Assembly: GCA_036785375.1 (NCBI GenBank)
Contig: JAWMAR010000788.1
Span: 1 to 64,000, forward strand
Reading direction: 5' to 3'
DNA from: Leucoraja ocellata
Taxonomy: Eukaryota
Length of the DNA stretch: 64,000 nucleotides
Numbering within the stretch: the stretch's first letter is position 1; each line of letters opens with the position of its first letter. The position numbers were made by a program, and so were the translations under genes. Of this stretch, positions 656 through 57,052 are shown piece by piece. Below the pieces are notes generated by a model. The model searched no databases. It was not told the origin of the DNA and saw nothing but the letters and a program-made list of their open reading frames with translations.

Positions 656-729
656 CAATCACCCTTACAGACTGGGAGCGATTTACAGAAGCCAATTAGC
701 CTACAAACCTGCATGTCTTTGGACAGTAA

Positions 730-972
730 AGGGCCTGTCCCACTTACATGATTTTTTTTCGTCATCCCGCGACATGTCACCTGTATGGTCGTGAGTAGTC
801 GCCCAAAGAGTCGTACCTATTCCTGGTTGCTGCTGGATTTTCAACATGTTGAAATTTTTCAGCGACCTGCTACGACTGTGACAGGTGCCGGCCAGTCGCC
901 GAAAAAAATTAAGTAGGTGGGACAAGCCCTTTACAGTCCAAAGACTTGCAGGTTTGTAGTGGGACAGGTCCT
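730..972. mobile_element. PIF/Harbinger-type MITE with duplicated right TIR
   Basis: TIR AGGGCCTGTCCCACT, TAA at 727-729 and 973-975, internal palindrome TTTCAACATGTTGAAA at 839-854, and an additional TIR copy ending at 930. Confidence 0.75.
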
Positions 973-1565
973 TAATATACCCTGAAAGTTGTAAAGTTGA
1001 AGCAATCAAGAAACCACTCTGGTGGCCATGGCCATTTCTCAGTAAGAGATTCACACACTTTGAATCTCTCAAGCTATTATAAAAAGAGATAAAATAGAAA
1101 AGGAAAATCAAAGTGAAAAGGAAACAACAAACATGGCCGCCGGCACGACCTGCTGAGCATCTGTCTACAACTTATTGTGCCCCAAAACTGGTCTCTTAAA
1201 CCACAGTGGGTCACAGAAAGTGTTGTGACACTGTGCACGCACAACATAAAGAGAACATTCCCCCAGAGTTTATCCTTTATCTGTGCACTGTGGACAGCTT
1301 GATTGTATTCATCTATCGTATTTTCTTCAACTGGAAACAAAAGCTTTCTGTACTTTGGAATAAGTGACAAATAAAGGAAAGTAAAACAACTAAACCGTGA
1401 AGCTGACAATAGTGTAGATGGTTTGGTGACTGAACAATTAAAACCGTTGCTGAGACAGTGGCAGATCGTTTATTGTTTTGGTCACCCTGTTATATTAAGG
1501 ATGTGGAGGCCTGAAGAGGGTGCAGAAGAGATTTACCAGAATGTTGTTTGAATGAGAGGGTATTA

Positions 1566-2419
1566 AGCCCCCTGTCCCACTTAAGGGGTTGTCCCACTGT
1601 ACGAGGTAATTCAAGAGCTCTCCTGAGTTTAAAAAAAAATCAAACTCGTGGTAAGCACGTGGAATGTACGTAGCGGGTACATCGGAGCTCGGGACGTCTC
1701 TTAGCGGCTCGTAACGCTAACGGCAGCTACTCAGGAAACGCGGTAAGCTCGTGAAGATTTTTCAACATGTTGAAAAATGTCCACGAGAGCCCCGAGTACC
1801 TACAAGTGGCTAGTACCGTAATTCTCCGCGTTCGAATCGGGGATACTCGAGAGAACTCTTGAATTAGCTCGTACAGTGGGACAGCCCCTTTAGGCGATTT
1901 TCCCGGCGACTAGGTGACCTGTATGGTCGTGAGTCGTCTCCTCAAGTCGCCTAAAGAGTCGTAACGCTGGATTTTGAAACGTTGGATTTTGAAACGTTCA
2001 AAACTTTTCTGCAACTGTGGCCTTGACGTAGCTTGACTTCTTGCCAGGTGACGTAGGTTGTCGCCGGGTGCCGACTTCAGTGAATTCCATCGGCGACTAC
2101 CCACGCCAACCGGCGACAGGTACCGGCGACTGAATTGTCTTCAGTTGTCGCCGACAGGGTCGTAGCTTGTCGCGATTGTCGCGGGTTGACATATGTTGAC
2201 TTTGGTTGTCACCTGTGTGGACGTAGGTGTGGTCGTAGGTGGACGTCCTAATGGGTCGCCGGTTGTCGGTAGCTTGCAGTAGCTTGACGTCGACTAGTTG
2301 GTAGGTTGTTGTAGCTCGTCGTAGACATTGTGGTGGGGGGGGTCCAGTCGCCGAAAAAATCTACGAGTGTTACAGTCGCTGACAGTCACCGAAAAAGTCA
2401 CCTAAGTGGGACAGGCCCC
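1566..2419. mobile_element. PIF/Harbinger-type MITE (outer element, GTCG/CGAC-rich) inserted in a CR1 fragment
   Basis: TIR ..CCTGTCCCACTTAGG / CCTAAGTGGGACAGG.., TTA flanks. CR1 ORF2 sequence resumes after 2420. Confidence 0.75.
1584..1889. mobile_element. PIF/Harbinger-type MITE (inner element, 306 bp) nested in the left TIR of the outer element
   Basis: TTA TSD at 1581-1583 and 1890-1892, TIR AGGGGYTGTCCCACTGTACGAG, near-identical to 29661-29969. Confidence 0.85.
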
Positions 2420-15560: not shown

Positions 15561-16850
15561 CAGCCCCACGCTGCCAGGCCCCTCACTGCTCCACGCTGCC
15601 AGGCCCCTCACTGCTCCACGCTGCCAGGCCCCACTGCCCCACGCTGCCAGGCCCCTCACTGCTCCACACTGTCAGGCCCCACGCTGCCAGGCTCCTCACT
15701 GCCAGGCCCCTCACTGCTCCACGCTGCCAGGCCCCACTGCCTCACGCTGCCAGGCCCCACTGCCCCACACTGCCAGGCCCCACTGCCTCACGCTGCCAGG
15801 CCCCATTGCCCCACACTGCCCGGCCCCACTGCCTCACGCTGCCCGGCCCCACTGCCTCACGCTGCCCGGCCCCACTGCCTCACGCTGCCAGGCCCCATTG
15901 CCCCACACTGCCAGGCCCCACCGCCTCACGCTGCCAGGCCCCACTGCCCCACACTGCCAGGCCCCACTGCCTCACGCTGCCAGGCCCCTCACTGCCCCAC
16001 GCTGCCAGGCCCCTCACTGCCCCACGCTGCCAGGCCCCTCACTGCCCCACGCTGCCAGGCCCCACTGCCCCACGCTGCCAGGCCCCTCACTGCCCCACGC
16101 TGCCAGGCTCCTCACTGCTCCACACTGCCAGGCCCCTCACTGCTCCACACTGCCAGGCCCCTCACTGCTCCACACTGCCAGGCCCCACGCTGCCAGGCCC
16201 CTCACTGCCAGGCCCCTCACTGCCCCACGCTGCCAGGCCCCACTGCCTCGCACTGCCAGGCCCCTCACTGCCCCACGCTCCTCACTGCCAGGCCCCACTG
16301 CCTCACGCTGCCAGGCCCCTCACTGCCCCACGCTGCCAGGCCCCACTGCCTCGCACTGCCAGGCCCCTCACTGCCCCACGCTGCCAGGCCCCTCACTGTC
16401 CCACGCTCCTCACTGCCAGGCCCCACTGCCTCACGCTGCCAGGCCCCACTGCCCCACACTGCCAGGCCCCTCACTGCCAGGCCCCACTGCCTCACGCTGC
16501 CAGGCCCTTCACTGCCCCACGCTGCCAGGCCCCACTGCCTCGCACTGCCAGGCCCCTCACTGCCCCACGCTCCTCACTGCCAGGCCCCACTGCCCCACGC
16601 TGCCAGGCCCCACTGCCCCACGCTGCCAGGCCCCTCACTGCTCCACACTGCCAGGCCCCTCACAGCCCCACGCTGCCAGGCCCCACTGCCTCACACTGCC
16701 AGGCCCCTCACTACTCCACGCTCCTCACTGCCAGGCCCCTCACTGCTCCACACTGCCAGGCCCCTCACTGCTCCACAATGCCAGGCCCCTCACTGCCCCA
16801 CGCTGCCAGGCCCCACTGCCTCACGCTGCCAGGCCCCTCACTGCTTCACT
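15561..16850. repeat. GC-rich minisatellite, 23-25-bp units (cactgcYYcacRctgccaggcccc[tc])
   Basis: About 1.3 kb, roughly 50-55 units by length. It accounts for the three overlapping 345-505 aa ORFs in the track. Confidence 0.95.
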
Positions 16851-17107
16851 CACAGACTCTAAGGACATCAGTAAGCTGGAAAGAGCGCAGAGAAGATTCA
16901 TGAGGATGTTGCCAGGACCTGTTGGCCTGAGCTAAAGGTTGTACAGCAGCTGAGTTGCTGCCTCACAGCACTGGAGACCCGGGTTCGATCGCGACTATGG
17001 GTTCTGTCTGTGTGGAGTTTGCACGTTCTTCCCGTAATCACGTGCGTTTTCTCCGAGGTCTTCGGTTTCCTCCCACACTCCAAAGACAGACTGGTTTGTA
17101 AGTTGTG

Positions 17108-17300
17108 GGAGAAAGAACTGCAGATGTTGGTTTAAATCGAAGGTACACACAAAATGCTGAGTAACTCAGCGGGACAAGCAACATCTCTGGAGAGAAGGAA
17201 TGGGTGACATTTCGGGTCTCGACCTGAAACATCACCCATTCCTTCTCTCCAGAGATGCTGCCTGTCCCGCTGAGTCACTCCGGCATTTTGTGTCTACCCT
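17108..17300. mobile_element. Penelope-like pLTR palindrome abutting a partial HE1 SINE (16937-17103)
   Basis: Inverted arms meeting at ttcgggtctcgacctgaaac. Confidence 0.8.
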
Positions 17301-18429
17301 CTAGTATGTGACATTTTCTCTGTAAAAAAGGTTCTGATTGTCTACCTTATCTATGCCTCTCATAATTTATATACTTCCATCAGTTGTCCGACCGACCTTT
17401 TGTCGCTGGTTGTGGTGGGACTAGAACTCGATGTAGGCCTGCCTCATGCTAACACGGTCTTGTGTATAAATTATTCTGGGCATCATATGTTGGGCATCTC
17501 CCAAAGCCATTAGCGAAATGTTCACGCACACTCACCATTGTGAACACAAAGTCTAATGTGTGGACATGCTGAATCACAAAATAAGACTCCTAATGCAGCC
17601 ACATACTGTATACAGAAACATGAAACCTTCAAAATAAATACAGACGCATATACACACATGCACAAGAGTGCAGGACCACCCTGGAAAAGTTTCAATCGCT
17701 CGACTACCCTCTCAAGCATTCACAAAAAGATCTTGATAAAAATCCAACCCTTCATTCAGAATTATCTGCTCCCCGCCCCTGGTTTCTGGAGGGCGAGGTC
17801 AGTCCAAGTTTCTGCTATGACTCAAGCCCACAGTGTGAGACAGGCAGGCTCCTTGATAGCTCGGAGTGGGAGGATATGCCATGCTAGATTGTTTTTGTAG
17901 TAAGGCAGAGCAAGTTAGTGAAGCATGTGTTTGTTCAAATCGAAGATAGACACAAAATGCTGGGGTAACTCAGTGGGACAGGCAGCATCTCTGGAGAGAA
18001 GGAATAGGTGACATTTCGGATTGAGATCTCTTCCTCTTGCCAGAAAGGTGAATTTTTGTAAACTGACCTTCATGAGGTAAAACGTTTAAAATCACCTTAG
18101 ATTTTCTTCATGCTCACAGTGATGCAAAGTACTTTTTTTGCAATCATTGTTTATATAAGATGAATACCACAAAAGGCAGTACTTAAGCTGGAGAACATGC
18201 AGTTTGACAATCGAGACTGTTCATTGTAATTTAGTTTCGAGATGCAGCATGGAAACAAATCTTTCGATGCACAGAATCCATTATAGGTCATTTCACTTTC
18301 TCATTCACTCCCTACAGACTCAGGACATTCCAGACTATATTATTTACACAAAAAATAGTTCTAGAACCATTTCATTTCTGTAATTTCCTTAAAGCAATTT
18401 TAATTTGTCAGAATTTTGAATTTTATGTT

Positions 18430-29262: not shown

Positions 29263-29660
29263 CTGAGCCCTCAACCTTAGGCCTATGAGCAATATGGGAT
29301 CACAAAGATGAAATGAAAATAGGGTCACAATAAGAATTAATTTATTCTTTAGATTACTTTATTGTAACACTCAGAGAGATGCAGAACCGTAGCACTGTAG
29401 TGTGGTGGTGAAGCTGCTGGACAAGCAATCTTTGATCCAGAGACACGTTTAAAATGGGAAATTTAAGTAATGATATAACCTGGAATTGAAACACTTAAGT
29501 TAGCCTGACTAACGGAAGCCGTGAGATTGCTGCAAATAAACTGCTGTTTCACTGCTATTTGTCAAGGAAGGAACCGTCTTGTTCTGACTTAGTGTGGACC
29601 AGATGTGACTTCAGATAATGGGGTTGACTTTAAAATGCCTCCTTATTCAGGGATTGGTTA

Positions 29661-29969
29661 AGGGCCTGTCCCACTGTACAAGCTAATTCAAGAGCTCTCC
29701 CGAGTTAAAACAAAAAAATCAAACTCGTGGTAAGCACGTAGAATGTACGGAGCGGGTACATCGGAGCTCGGGACGTCTCTTAGCGGCTCGTAACGCTACC
29801 AGCAGGTACTCGGGAAACGCGGGAAGCTCGGGAAGAATTTTCAACATGTTGAAAAATGTCCACGAGAGCCACGAGTACCTACGAGTGGCTATTACCGTAA
29901 TTCTCCGAGTTCGAATCAGGGGAAACTCGGGAGAACTCTTGAATTAGCTCGTACAGTGGGACAGCCCCA
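29661..29969. mobile_element. PIF/Harbinger-type MITE (same family as 1584-1889) inserted in an old SINE-like repeat (about 29400-30025)
   Basis: TIR AGGGCCTGTCCCACTGTAC / GTACAGTGGGACAGCCCCA, TTA/TAA flanks, palindrome TTTTCAACATGTTGAAAA at 29838-29855. Confidence 0.85.
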
Positions 29970-30612
29970 TAACAAATGCAGATACCTCTCCACCGGTGAG
30001 CAATGCCCATCCCGTGAATCAATGTATCAAAGGGTAACTGATTTTCTTTCAGAATAACAGCGTTGATCAATGAAGTTTTTAGATGCTGTATATTTATGCG
30101 TTAAAGTCAATAATCAGATATTGAAATACATTCTGCGCACCATTTTAAGATGAGAAGAAATCTCAGTTAAAAAGCTTGAGGATTACTTGAGATAGGGTGG
30201 AAGAAGGTTTATGAGCAGCATGAACCATGGCATGGTACAAATAGCATGTTCCTGTGCTGAAAATTCAATGCATGTCTGTTCCACTATCCAGTCCAGGCCT
30301 TTGCATAGACTGACTCAACAGGTTGTTTCACGTACACAGAGATCACAGACTTGTTGTGTTCCCAAGCTTTACTCATGAGCTTAATACCATCCACCTGCCC
30401 GAGAAAATTCCAGCACAGATGGAATTTCACCTGCTCCACATACCTGTCAAGTTATCTGAATCGAAGATTCAAAACACAGTCAGGTTCAAGGCTTCTAATC
30501 AGAGGGAAACATCTCAAGCCCACCACATCTCTCCATAACACATATCTACAGTGCCAAACTTTCTGTGTTTGATCTTACCAACAGGTATTGTACTGCAACT
30601 TGCATTTCTCCT

Positions 30613-33781: not shown

Positions 33782-35164
33782 CTGTGGAGGGAAGAGCGAG
33801 GGGAGTCACTGTATGTGCGTGAGCTTCAATATAACGAGCAAATGAACAGGCAAATAAACAGCGGCAACCCGAGTTTCAAGAACGTTTGAAGTATTATTCC
33901 TGCAGGAATGCAGGAGGCTTTGGCAAACTACCCATAGAAACATAGAAAATAGGTGCAGAGGTAGGCCATTTGGCCCTTCGATCCATTCAATATGATCATG
34001 GCCAATCATCCAAAATCAATACCCCTTTCCAGCTTTCTTCCCATATCCCTTGATTCCCTTAGCCCTCAGAGCTATATCTAACTTCCTCTTGACACAGCAA
34101 GATCCCACAAACATATGATTGTGACCAGATAATCTTACTTGTTTTAATTGCAGTTATTTGCAGTAAAAGGATGCAATTTTAGTTTATGGTTAAACCATTG
34201 GCTTGGAAACTGCACATAACTCACTTTCTCTTCACCCAACAGTGCTGTGGGGATCCACAGTGGAATGGAAAGACAGAAGTGGAATGGAATGAGATGGGGG
34301 GGGGGGGGGGGGAGAAGGGGGAAAGAGGAAAAGAAAGGGAGAGTACGAGGGAAGAGAAAAAGAGAAACAAGACAGAAAAAAGTTCACAATTGATTGAACT
34401 GACAATCCTAACCATGATAATGTTAAATGAACATTTCACTTTAAATATACAAGCTTCCCAGTTGTGATCTGCATCAGAAAGAGCTTCATCAGTAAATCTG
34501 TAGAAGGGTTTCAGCCCGAAACATTGCCTATTTCCTTCGCTCCATAGCTGCTGCCCCACCCGCTGAGTTTCTCCAGCATTTTTATCTACCTCAGTAAATC
34601 TAATTACTTTCATTTAAAACCCACGGGGAATGCATCTTGCTCTTGAGAAAACTTTGTAATACACACACACATGGAATCATTGAATTTTACAATGCAGAGA
34701 GGTCAATCACCGTGATGTGTTTGCACTGGCTCAGAACAGGGGGTCAAATTCGATCCCACGCTCCGACATCCCCCGCTTAACCCTGCAATTTATATGTACG
34801 CAATTGCTCTCTAAACATTCTTACAGAGTCTGCTTCCACTTTTTGGGTAGTGTGTTCCAGATGTCTGTGTGTGAAAAATATTTCCCTTCATTTCCTGTCT
34901 ATTCCTAAAGCTACTGGAAGATGCTGTGAAACATGCAACCACCTAGAAATGATGCAGCATAGGCATCGCGCGCAAATCACGCGTCACCATGCGCCAGCAC
35001 AGCTGTCTGGTACGTGTGATGTCATTAGAATGCCCTGCTTCCCTATTCTGCATCATGACAATCATGGAAGGACTACAGATTTTATTCGTACAGCAACAGA
35101 GACTTCTGTTAGCAGCAGCCCTCATTCTTACAGATCAGCCAGGCAGGAGTACAACAAGAAAAGC

Positions 35165-35458
35165 TAGCACGAAACCCAGGAAGAGGTCCGTGTGGACGAG
35201 GTTAGGAGTTACATGACACGTAAAAGGCGGGCCGACTGCGTATGCACGTCACATGTTTACGGACGTTGACGCACGGTGACGTAACCACGCGTCAGCACAC
35301 GATACAGCGCGACGCCAATGCGTCAGCGTGTGTAGCCAATGCGCGCCACTGCATGCGATTCCACGCCTCACCATGCGCAATGCGTACGTCACGCGTGGAC
35401 CTATTTTACATATGACGCGTAAATGAGATGCAAATGACGGCCAAGTGGGACAGGCCCT
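35165..35458. mobile_element. Partial PIF/Harbinger-type element (ACGCG-rich, right TIR only)
   Basis: Ends AAGTGGGACAGGCCCT, with CpG-rich short internal repeats and related sequence at about 34960-35025. Left TIR not found. Confidence 0.6.
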
Positions 35459-54085: not shown

Positions 54086-54089
54086 ATGG

Positions 54090-54646
54090 CATGGTGGTGC
54101 AGCGGTAGAGTTGCTGCCTTAAGGGCCTGTCCCATGAAGCGAGTTCACCCAAGAGCTCTTCCGAGTTTAAAAGAAAATCAAACTCGTGGTACCTCATCAC
54201 GAGTATTTTTTTACTCTTGGAAATATTTCACACTGTTGAAAAAACTTTACGAGTTTCCGCGTTTCCCGAGTACCTGCCGTTAGCATTACGAGCTGCTACG
54301 GGACATCCACGAATTCCGAATTACCCGCTACATACATTCTACGTACTTACCACAAGTTAGATTTTTTTTTTAAACTCGGGAGAGCTCTTGGGTAAATGCG
54401 CATCGTGGGACAGGCCCTTTACAGCATCAGAGACCCGGGTTCAATCCTGACCACGGGTGCTGTCTGGACGGAGTTTGCACGTTCTCCCCATGACCTGCGT
54501 GGGTTTTCTCTGGGTGCACCGGTTTCCTCCCACACTCCAAAGACTTATAGGTTTGTAGGCTAATTGGGTTCGGTAAAATTGTAAATTGACTCAATGGGCC
54601 GAAGGGCCTGTTTTCTCGCTGCATCGCTAAACTGAACTAAAACTAA
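54090..54646 (+). mobile_element. HE1-type SINE interrupted in its tRNA-like head by a MITE
   Basis: gcagcggtagagttgctgccTTA[MITE]TTAcagcatcagagacccgggttcaatcc. Confidence 0.9.
54122..54418. mobile_element. PIF/Harbinger-type MITE (297 bp, ~70-bp imperfect TIRs)
   Basis: TTA TSD at 54119-54121 and 54419-54421; termini AGGGCCTGTCCCA / TGGGACAGGCCCT. Confidence 0.9.
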
Positions 54647-56581
54647 ATGGAAATGAGATAATATCTCTTAATACAAGAGGGTGGTGAATGTTAGGAGTTA
54701 TGGAACAGTACAGCATAGGAACAGGCCCTTCAGCCCACAATGTTGTGCCGAACATCATGTTAGTTAAAACAAATCTCCTCTGCCTGCATGTGGTCCATAC
54801 CCCCTCATATTCATGTGCCTATCCAAATTATTTTAAGCACCACTATCGTATCTGGCTCCACCACCACCCCTGGCAACGTGTTCCAGGCACCCATCACTCT
54901 CTACGTAAAGAACTAGCCCTGCTCATTAAATCTATTAAATCTTTCCCCTCTCACCCTAAAGCTATGGCCTCATGCCTGGATACATGAAAGGCACTATACA
55001 AATGCAGATACGAGAGACTGCAGATAGACACAAACTGCTGGACTAACTCAACGGGACAGGCAGCATCCTCAGCGTAATCCAGCATCTGCAGTTCCTTCCT
55101 ACACATTTCGAAAGAACAAAGTGCTGGAGGAACTCAGTGGGTCAGGCAGCATCCGTGGAGGGAAATTGACAAGACGACGTTTCGGGTTGGGACCATTCTT
55201 TGGGTGGTAGAGGGAGATCAAGAAAGCGACTGTCGACAACTGAATGAATGCTGGAAAGTTTATGCATTTTAGGGACCAGACTGGGAATCGAGAGCACCGC
55301 AAATCTCTGAGGGTACCTTTGGTTAAAACCTATCTCTCTGGCGTGGGTTAGTGGATGCATTTCCCGGGACCCCCCCCCCCCCCCCCCTCTAGACCATTCC
55401 CTGCACATTCCACAGCTCCCCACTTGGATAAAGGGAAAAAGGTCCACTGGGGCACCATCTCCATTAAGAGGTTTCCGCGGTATCTTAGCAACCTTATTGT
55501 TGACCTATGCATTAGTAACACACTGAGAATGCAGCTAAAATAAGGGAGACGTAGAATGCCCCATTGGAGTGAAGGCCCTCATTGTTTCACCATCCCCCTA
55601 TACATGGGTATGGAGATGGGGAGGGGGGTTGGGGAGGGGGGGGCATAAACACTGCACCGTGCAGTGCAAACATTTCAAGCAAAAGTTATCTAAGCATGTA
55701 GCAATGCAACAACCATAGTTACAGCACAAACAGGACAGAGATATAACTGGATCATCTTTTAGTGGTGCTGTGCTGCATCAAGACAAAATCCTGTCTCACC
55801 TTTAGTCCTCCTACCCTTCCATGAATTACAGTAACGCTGGTCTCTATAAGACAAACCAGCAAATTAAAGTGCAAGTGGCTCTACCACAGGGAACGAGAGA
55901 ATAAATAAATAATGAGTGATGGTCAATTTGTTTTTCTAGTGTTAGTTTAGAGATAGAACGTTACAGGCCCTTCGGCCCACTCAGTCCATGCCAACCATCC
56001 TTCACCCACTCACATGAGTGCTACAGTACTTTATCCCACTTTCTCATCCACTCCCTGCACATTAGGAGCAATTTTTAGAGGCCGGTTAGTGTACAAACCT
56101 ACATGTCTTTGAGATGTGGGAGGAAACCGAAGCACCTGGAGGAAGCCCATTCAGTCAGAGGGAGAAAGTGCAAACTCCACACAGACAGGACCCGAGGTCA
56201 GATTCGAGCTGCTCTGGTGAGGCAGCAATTGTTTGTCCTTACAGTCAGATTTCCTCTAGATACAATCTGGGAATATCCTTTCAGTTCTCCTCACTTATGG
56301 CTCCCGGTATAATATATCCCCTTCACACATCCACAGAAGTATTCATCACTCCACCTCCAACACTTGTTTGCAAAAACTACATATAGTAGAGTCAAGAGTC
56401 AAGATGATAGTGGAGTCTGTGGGCCAAAGGGGCTGTTTCTGCACTGTATGTCTAAAGTCTAAAGTCCACAATAAGGTACAAGTAAAATGAAAATCTTGCT
56501 TGCAGCAACATCACAGGCGCATGGACTCAGCCAAATGCACAAAAACACAAATTATACATACATTATTCATAAATTTGACAG

Positions 56582-57052
56582 TCATGGTGGCGCAGCGGTA
56601 GAGTTGCTGCCTAATGCCCCTGTCCCACTTAGGAAAGGTTCCCGGAGGTTTTTGTCAGTCTCCCTACTTGCTTCCACTACCTGCAATCTCTGGGAACCGC
56701 ACGGAAACCTTGGGTGGGGCGAAAAGTCTCCAGAGGTTTCCGTTCAGGTTTCCTAAGTGGGACAGGGGCATTAAGTGAATGCAGCACCAGAGACCCGGGT
56801 TCGATCCCGAATACGGGTGCTGTCTGTAAGGAGTTTGTACGTTCTCCCCGTGACCTGCGTGGGTTTTCTCCATGACCTCCGGTTTCCTCCCACATTCCAA
56901 AGACGTACAGAGTTGTAGGTTAATTGGCTTGGTAAATGCAAAAATTATCCCTAGTGGGTGTAGGATAGTGTTAATGTGCGGGGATCGCTGGTCGGCGCGG
57001 ACCCGGTGGGCCGAAGAGCTGTTTCCGTGCTGTATCTCTAAACTAAACTAAA
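56582..57052 (+). mobile_element. HE1-type SINE interrupted in its tRNA-like head by a MITE
   Basis: gcagcggtagagttgctgccTAA[MITE]TTAagtgaatgcagcaccagagacccgggttcgatccc. Confidence 0.9.
56615..56770. mobile_element. PIF/Harbinger-type MITE (156 bp)
   Basis: Perfect 22-bp TIR TGCCCCTGTCCCACTTAGGAAA, TWA flanks, internal GGAAACC/GGTTTCC repeats. Confidence 0.88.

What the first reader, a model, noticed from the sequence alone, without database searches (positions are those of the whole stretch)
54090..57052. Different Harbinger MITE families insert at the identical TTA in the HE1 SINE tRNA-like head
Seen: a 297-bp MITE (54122-54418) and an unrelated 156-bp MITE (56615-56770) both interrupt separate SINE copies at gagttgctgcc^TTA^cagc, between the Pol III A and B boxes. 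The MITE at 730 also has a TTAcag-type flank attached to SINE sequence. That is 2-3 of about 10 Harbinger-type elements in the window. Known: Harbinger elements duplicate TWA and some have extended target consensus sequences. Inference: a DNA-transposon guild using a high-copy SINE as a safe-harbour target, through sequence match or TFIIIC/Pol III tethering, and disabling SINE promoters as it does so. I am not aware of this being described in chondrichthyans.
Basis: partly seen in the sequence, partly recalled or inferred. Interest (0 to 1): 0.7.

Follow-up and report, generated by a model that had tools for sequence, protein, structure and literature searches.

The report
Transposon sequence hotspot inside a SINE
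Small jumping-DNA elements sit at one exact spot of a very common repeat about 40 times more often than at an average permitted site, most likely because that spot happens to match the short DNA sequence their enzyme prefers rather than because they seek out the repeat's promoter; about a quarter of the insertions also show an unexplained one-letter mismatch between the two copies of the target site.

Summary
The hotspot is real; the proposed safe-harbour/Pol III tethering is not supported. Genome-wide, 2,090 of 93,873 TTA-type SINE heads (2.2%) carry a PIF/Harbinger MITE at this TTA, against 0.059% for an average TWA (38-50x). The insertions are independent: many families, both orientations, no clade. 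But only about 3-4% of these MITEs sit there. Occupancy follows local sequence: heads with a perfect A box 2.26%, perfect B box 3.4% (vs 2.9%), TCA-type heads 0.12%, two other TWA sites in the same SINE 0.02-0.03%, a distal SINE site 1.3%, an unrelated repeat 0.55%. The two half-sites measured outside the SINE multiply to about 20x; a 2-2.6x remainder is unexplained but not special to the head. This is the known extended target preference of PIF/Harbinger meeting a 100,000-copy template. The window's third case (730) is not at this site. Side finding: the SINE fixes the pre-insertion triplet as TTA, yet the left copy reads TAA in 22-28 of 100 insertions and the right in 4 of 73, independent of age; likely donor-flank carry-over at insertion. 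The scan's notes held no earlier report of either.

The parts
54087..54118 (+). V-SINE copy 1, 5' part of tRNA-like head with A-box-like motif (54095-54105)
   Evidence: sequence; box consensus recalled
54119..54121 (+). left target-site triplet TTA
54122..54418 (.). 297-bp PIF/Harbinger MITE, about 70-bp TIRs; same family as the element at 29661-29969 (80% over 207 nt); holds T7 and T10 runs
54419..54421 (+). right target-site triplet TTA
54422..54647 (+). V-SINE copy 1, rest of head with B-box-like motif (54438-54447), V domain, tail
56583..56611 (+). V-SINE copy 2, 5' part of head with A-box-like motif (56588-56598)
56612..56614 (+). left triplet TAA, does not match the right triplet
56615..56770 (.). 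156-bp internally deleted copy of the 226-bp TGCC-ended MITE family (21,238 exact ends genome-wide)
56771..56773 (+). right triplet TTA
56774..57052 (+). V-SINE copy 2, rest of head with B-box-like motif (56798-56807), V domain, tail; holds the control TWA sites near 56920 and 56972
730..930 (.).
35051..35458 (+). deletion derivative of the autonomous element: transposase N-terminus (81-88% to L277/L286) next to a TIR ending at 35458

Best explanation
Several PIF/Harbinger MITE families have inserted independently, about 2,000 times, at one TTA in the head of a high-copy V-SINE, most likely because their transposase reads about six bases on each side of the TWA and this site scores in the top half-percent. 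Shown: the enrichment, the independence, the extended preference (C>G at -1, G at -3, A at -4, G at -5/-6, symmetric), the loss of insertions when the local sequence changes, and no gain from intact promoter boxes. Inferred: the transposase (DDE_Tnp_4 ORF plus a MADF-like partner, found inside the same TIRs) does the reading; retrotransposition of a TTA-bearing SINE subfamily multiplied one good target about 100,000 times, so a soft preference looks like targeting. Inferred: the insertion would silence that SINE copy (boxes pushed 150-300 bp apart, internal T runs), which fits the lack of composite amplification. A 2-2.6x excess over the sequence model remains and likely reflects shared genomic neighbourhoods and non-additive readout.
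For: Head 2,090/93,873 = 2.2%; average TWA 0.059%. Matrix from 182 non-repeat half-sites predicts head 17x (95% 7-35), distal body site 12x, two poor SINE sites 0.25x and 0.38x, second repeat 3x; observed 38x, 22x, 0.36x, 0.49x, 9x. Half-sites outside the SINE: 53/16,178 (5.6x) and 77/32,161 (4.1x), product 22.6x. TCA heads 63/53,717 = 0.12%. -1 C to A/T heads 70/7,310 = 0.96%. Perfect A box 220/9,746 = 2.26%, P 0.83. Perfect B box 73/2,121 = 3.4%, CI 2.7-4.3, vs 2.9%. 35 distinct head insertions fall in 12 clusters; 17 TGCC-family copies at the head are unclustered among 54 (15 changes vs 14.5 shuffled), 8 and 9 per orientation. Extended preference is a described trait of the superfamily (PMC2836001, passages).
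Against: Observed 38-50x exceeds the half-site product (19-23x) by 1.7-2.6x and lies just above the matrix's 95% bound; the matrix over-predicts the non-SINE left control (10x vs 5.6x). Controls hold some degenerate SINE heads (2 of 30 and 4 of 20 loci read). If TTA-type SINE copies are younger than some MITE families, the true excess is larger. The -1 mutation drops occupancy 2.3x, not the 5x predicted (explained if about 30% of those mutations postdate insertion; inferred). The B-box subset is 1.2x higher. Real tRNA genes were not examined. All counts are exact-pattern counts in an assembly that holds duplicated stretches.
Confidence: 0.85

Rival explanations
1. TFIIIC/Pol III tethering or Pol III-opened chromatin brings the transposase to SINE heads, and local sequence only picks the exact base.
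For: A 1.7-2.6x excess over the sequence model; B-box-perfect copies 3.4% vs 2.9%; the site lies between the boxes.
Against: No A-box effect (P 0.83); B-box interval overlaps and its pattern asks fewer TIR bases; 53,717 TCA-type heads hold 63 insertions, 10 of 17 readable ones with TTA on the other side; TWA sites about 140 bp downstream are below average while one about 180 bp downstream is 22x; a repeat without a visible tRNA head shows a larger excess, 3.1x. The site itself would be covered by bound factor (inference).
Confidence: 0.08
2. A few SINE+MITE composites were multiplied by retrotransposition or duplication.
For: Near-identical paralog pairs exist (17 pairs among 320 elements); one MITE family makes up 44 of 100 listed head insertions.
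Against: After removing duplicates: 12 MITE clusters, both orientations, several SINE subtypes, no clade; the same family is 32% of both non-SINE half-site controls (17/53, 25/77; hand counts).
Confidence: 0.03
3. Selection: insertions in SINEs are tolerated or favoured (safe harbour, SINE silencing), so they accumulate there.
For: All SINE sites run 1.3-2.2x above the model.
Against: A 100-fold range among sites of the same SINE copies cannot come from tolerance; only about 3-4% of insertions and 2-3% of heads are involved.
Confidence: 0.04

Closest known systems
PIF/Harbinger elements and Tourist-like MITEs (maize PIF, rice mPing, zebrafish Harbinger3_DR); PMC2836001, passages
   Same: 3-bp TWA target, TIRs, DDE transposase of PF13359, extended target preference (9 bp in plants, 15 bp in vertebrates per the paper; here a 15-bp window with signal at +/-1 to +/-6).
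   Different: Here the preference is soft, and its best high-copy match lies in a SINE; about 30% of elements have non-matching triplets with a 3:1 bias, whereas the papers read treat free insertions as having matching TSDs.
Dada DNA transposons targeting tRNA and snRNA genes; PMC8869645, passages, (PMC3706591 seen as search listing only)
   Same: DNA transposon inserted inside a tRNA-like Pol III unit; the paper attributes targeting to sequence; one-sided replacement of target bases is reported there too.
   Different: Dada is target-specific with 6-7-bp TSDs and, at anticodon sites, a fixed orientation; here about 96% of copies lie elsewhere, TSD 3 bp, both orientations, other superfamily.
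Pol III-tethered retrotransposons (yeast Ty1/Ty3, Dictyostelium TRE); PMC5911963 and PMC5006619 seen as search listings, mechanism recalled
   Same: Association with Pol III promoters.
   Different: Those depend on bound Pol III factors; here occupancy does not track promoter integrity and needs the local sequence.
piggyBac and mPing donor-flank overhangs; PMC7351741 (passages), PMC11254759 (passages), PMC4561436 (abstract, passages, one part of the main section)
   Same: Excised elements carry TSD-derived overhangs; mPing brings donor TTA/TAA into Cas9 breaks.
   Different: In yeast, free insertions of mPing from TCA/TCA donors showed TCA in 1 of 46, so frequent carry-over in free transposition is not described; the asymmetry seen here is not reported in those papers.
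V-SINEs (Ac1, DANA, HE1); PMC4824008 passages, PMC6887750 passages and supplement hits
   Same: V domain and homologous head.
   Different: The published Ac1 head shown has TCA at this position; the TTA that makes the target is likely a subfamily-level change.

Membership tests
PIF/Harbinger MITE | TIRs flanked by 3-bp TWA | tested here: met
   134,661 exact TWA+TIR ends, reversed control 272; 147 distinct elements with TWA on both sides, 103 of them matching
PIF/Harbinger MITE | cognate element with Harbinger-type DDE transposase inside the same TIRs | tested here: met
   L277, L281, L284, L286 of 20 loci fetched; PF13359 E 1e-21 to 8e-35
PIF/Harbinger MITE | second ORF with Myb/SANT-like domain | tested here: inconclusive
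   broken convergent ORF in L277, PF10545 E 0.0011, 19.8 bits, under the 22-bit cut-off
PIF/Harbinger MITE | extended target preference | tested here: met
   chi2 115, 37, 31, 15, 17 at -1, -3, -4, -5, -6; n = 182
PIF/Harbinger MITE | precise excision | not testable with these tools
   needs activity assay or population data
V-SINE | V domain | tested here: met
   compared by eye with Ac1, MER6 and Pyad sequences in the supplement of PMC6887750; no alignment run
V-SINE | tRNA-derived head with A and B boxes | tested here: inconclusive
   boxes seen by eye against recalled consensus; ARAGORN 0 genes, Rfam no tRNA hit, no cloverleaf
HE1 SINE | identity to the HE1 consensus and partner-LINE tail | not testable with these tools
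Dada-like target-specific transposon | most copies in the target | tested here: not met
   2,090 of about 67,000 elements (3.1%); 9 of 212 unselected ends
Dada-like target-specific transposon | 6-7-bp TSD, fixed orientation | tested here: not met
   3-bp TSD; orientations 8 and 9
Pol III-tethered element | insertion depends on intact A/B boxes | tested here: not met
   A box 2.26% vs 2.23%; B box 3.4% vs 2.9%, intervals overlap
Pol III-tethered element | insertions at real tRNA genes | not tested

The most novel reading that the evidence does not exclude
The SINE acts as 100,000 natural reporter targets and shows that a vertebrate PIF/Harbinger 'target-site duplication' is often not a duplication: at about one insertion in four the element installs its own 5'-TAA at one junction, as expected if the excised element brings a donor-derived 3-nt overhang that is joined piggyBac-style and resolved with a bias between A:A and T:T mismatches. 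This would be in-genome evidence for synthesis-free integration in this superfamily.
Probability: 0.4. Interest if true: 0.6.

Novelty: new member of a known kind. Interest (0 to 1): 0.35.

Why it matters
As found: a measured example of how a soft transposase preference plus a high-copy template yields an apparent 'targeting', and a warning for reading nested-repeat hotspots as tethering. It gives a first target profile for these Harbinger families and dates them after the TTA-type SINE spread. If the side finding holds, it bears on how PIF/Harbinger joins its ends (relevant to mPing-based engineering) and on annotation tools that demand identical TSDs, which would miss about 30% of these elements.

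Tried and rejected
Composite retrotransposition: rejected. Pol III tethering: A-box, B-box, TCA-head and neighbouring-site tests gave no support. The 730 element as third case: rejected. Mapping the TTA on a tRNA cloverleaf failed, so its place in the anticodon loop is not shown. Hairpin-driven conversion after insertion as cause of mismatched TSDs: no support from TIR symmetry (P 0.75), flank palindrome length (P 0.09), age (P 0.91) or paralog pairs (0 of 17 switched TTA/TAA; one further pair, L006/L007, does differ); not excluded. Inheritance of TSD class along the MITE tree: none seen, tree poorly resolved. Hammerhead identity of the second repeat: no Rfam hammerhead hit in 17100-18100. Solved-structure search with the transposase: no hit. 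First 30 transposase loci at +/-1.5 kb showed no enclosing TIR pair; 10-kb stretches did. Literature: searches listed no paper on Harbinger/MITE hotspots in SINE heads or in cartilaginous fish; 59 and 91 none on natural mismatched TWA TSDs; the library lacks most subscription journals, two wanted papers (Harbinger3_DR reconstruction; piggyBac non-canonical sites) were not held, and Repbase Reports could not be seen. Supplements of the mPing papers (insertion-junction lists) were not read and may bear on the side finding.

Full report
Observation. They share only about 10 terminal bases. The first has TTA/TTA; the second has TAA on the left and TTA on the right. The element at 730 lies in an inverted duplication of SINE body and is not a third case.

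Identity of the MITEs. In the own genome (3.44 Gb) there are 134,661 exact TWA+terminus ends, control 272. Of 20 transposase loci fetched at 10 kb, four (L277, L281, L284, L286) have a PF13359 ORF between such TIRs; L277 also has a broken MADF-like frame, under cut-off. The window holds a deletion derivative at 35051-35458. They are PIF/Harbinger MITEs.

Enrichment. 2,090 exact head junctions among 93,873 head sites give 2.2%; against 69,372 empty sites with intact CAG 2.9%. An average TWA half-site has 0.059% (57,359 half-sites in 864 kb). Enrichment 38-50x. Yet this is 3.1% of elements by exact count and 9 of 212 unselected ends.

Independence. 35 distinct head insertions form 12 clusters, 23 in the TGCC family. 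In a tree of 54 TGCC copies the 17 head copies need 15 label changes against 14.5 shuffled, and lie 8 and 9 in the two orientations (star-like tree, rough support). Composite amplification is rejected. Both window MITEs hold T runs of 5-10 on the SINE sense strand, which would likely stop Pol III (established knowledge; inferred here).

Why this site. 182 half-sites outside the three repeat hotspots show preference at -1 (C 2.5x, G 1.4x), -3 (G 1.8x), -4 (A 1.5x), -5 and -6 (G 1.5x), none beyond. The head site is in the top 0.5% of 28,696 TWA sites. Predicted versus observed: head 17x (7-35) vs 38x; SINE body site 12x vs 22x (534/41,344); two poor sites of the same SINE 0.25x and 0.38x vs 0.36x and 0.49x (22 and 30 of 104,487, hand split); a second repeat 3x vs 9x (787/143,001). 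Body and second-repeat denominators ask three more bases than the 93,873, so they compare best with 2.9%. Directly measured outside the SINE, the left hexamer gives 5.6x and the right 4.1x: product 22.6x, about 19x after trimming for degenerate SINE heads in the control (4 of 20 loci read; 2 of 30 for the left). A 1.7-2.6x remainder stands against a pure additive model, but the poor sites run 1.3-1.4x and the second repeat 3.1x above model, so it is not special to the Pol III head.

Tethering tests. Perfect A-box copies 220/9,746 = 2.26% vs 2.23%, P 0.83. Perfect B-box copies 73/2,121 = 3.4% (2.7-4.3) vs 2.9%; the patterns ask fewer TIR bases, which raises them slightly. TCA-type heads 63/53,717 = 0.12%, 19-fold lower; of 17 distinct readable ones 10 have TTA on the right, 5 TCA, 2 other. 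Heads with -1 C changed to A/T 70/7,310 = 0.96%, a smaller drop than the 5x predicted. Real tRNA genes were not examined.

Mechanism. Shown: sequence-dependent hotspot, independent events. Inferred: the transposase complex reads about 15 bp; a TTA-bearing V-SINE subfamily (the published Ac1 head shown has TCA) spread one good target about 100,000 times. An extended preference of 9 bp in plants and 15 bp in vertebrates is described for the superfamily (PMC2836001). Dada elements are the true tRNA-targeting DNA transposons (PMC8869645); this system fails their features.

Side finding. Empty heads read TTA in 100/100, 98/100 and 99/100 listed. Filled heads have left TAA in 22/100 and 28/100 (hand counts; the lists overlap) and right TAA in 4/73, P 0.002 and 0.0001. 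The body site agrees (left TAA 27/100 vs 6/100 empty; right 3/25) and the second repeat mirrors it (left TTA 6/100, right TTA 4/16). Among 147 distinct elements 103 match, 33 are TAA/TTA, 11 TTA/TAA (P 0.001; sample partly flank-selected). Only the middle base changes: GCC is intact in 7 of 7. No link to TIR symmetry, age, or tree position; 0 of 17 paralog pairs switch, though L006/L007 differ. This points to origin at insertion. mPing excises with TSD-derived overhangs (PMC4561436) and brings donor TTA/TAA into Cas9 breaks (PMC11254759), as piggyBac carries TTAA (PMC7351741). Against: mPing from TCA donors left TCA at 1 of 46 free insertions in yeast, and plain carry-over predicts symmetry unless A:A and T:T mismatches are resolved differently. 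A short template switch at the hairpin base that tolerates T:T remains the rival. I put carry-over at 0.4.

Novelty and verdict. The named searches listed no report of this hotspot or of the TSD asymmetry, within a library that lacks most subscription journals. The scan's notes held nothing on it. The hotspot is a real, well-measured, ordinary consequence of a known trait: new member of a known kind, interest 0.35, most of it from the TSD asymmetry.

Noticed in passing
genome-wide; window 56612-56773, 29658-29972, 727-933: About 30% of these MITEs have non-matching TWA triplets, TAA/TTA three times as often as TTA/TAA.
   Followed up: yes
L151-L180; window SINE site near 56972: Second hotspot in the same SINE body, GTG-TTA-RTG, 1.3% filled.
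   Followed up: yes
   Followed up: partly
L355, L360, L361: A likely further MITE site in the SINE tail just before the CTAAA repeats (3 of 20 control loci).
   Followed up: no
window 701-975: MITE flanked by a 30-bp inverted duplication of SINE body, followed by a lone extra TIR end: a transposition-linked rearrangement.
   Followed up: partly
window 1567-2419: Nested or fused Harbinger MITEs with three to four TIR ends.
   Followed up: no
window 35051-35458: Deletion derivative keeping the transposase N-terminus beside a TIR; left end not found.
   Followed up: partly
L277:4038-8803; L281:3525-6398; L284:3822-6329; L286:4123-6428: Near-complete autonomous Harbinger copies; L277 has a 451-residue open transposase frame, a CR1-like insertion and a broken MADF-like ORF.
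   Followed up: partly
L382, L388, L396, L399, L409: Five insertions with TCA/TCA: these MITEs occasionally use a TCA target.
   Followed up: partly
G000:C1 1-13 Mb versus 18-26 Mb: TGCC-family MITEs and well-preserved SINE heads are both far denser in the same region, a source of regional covariation.
   Followed up: no
window 15563-16849: GC-rich 23/25-bp minisatellite of about 1.3 kb giving long spurious open frames.
   Followed up: no
G000:C1, e.g. 289272/289473, 1590080/1590291: CAGGCTGCCTTA occurs in inverted pairs about 200 bp apart: another short inverted-repeat family.
   Followed up: no
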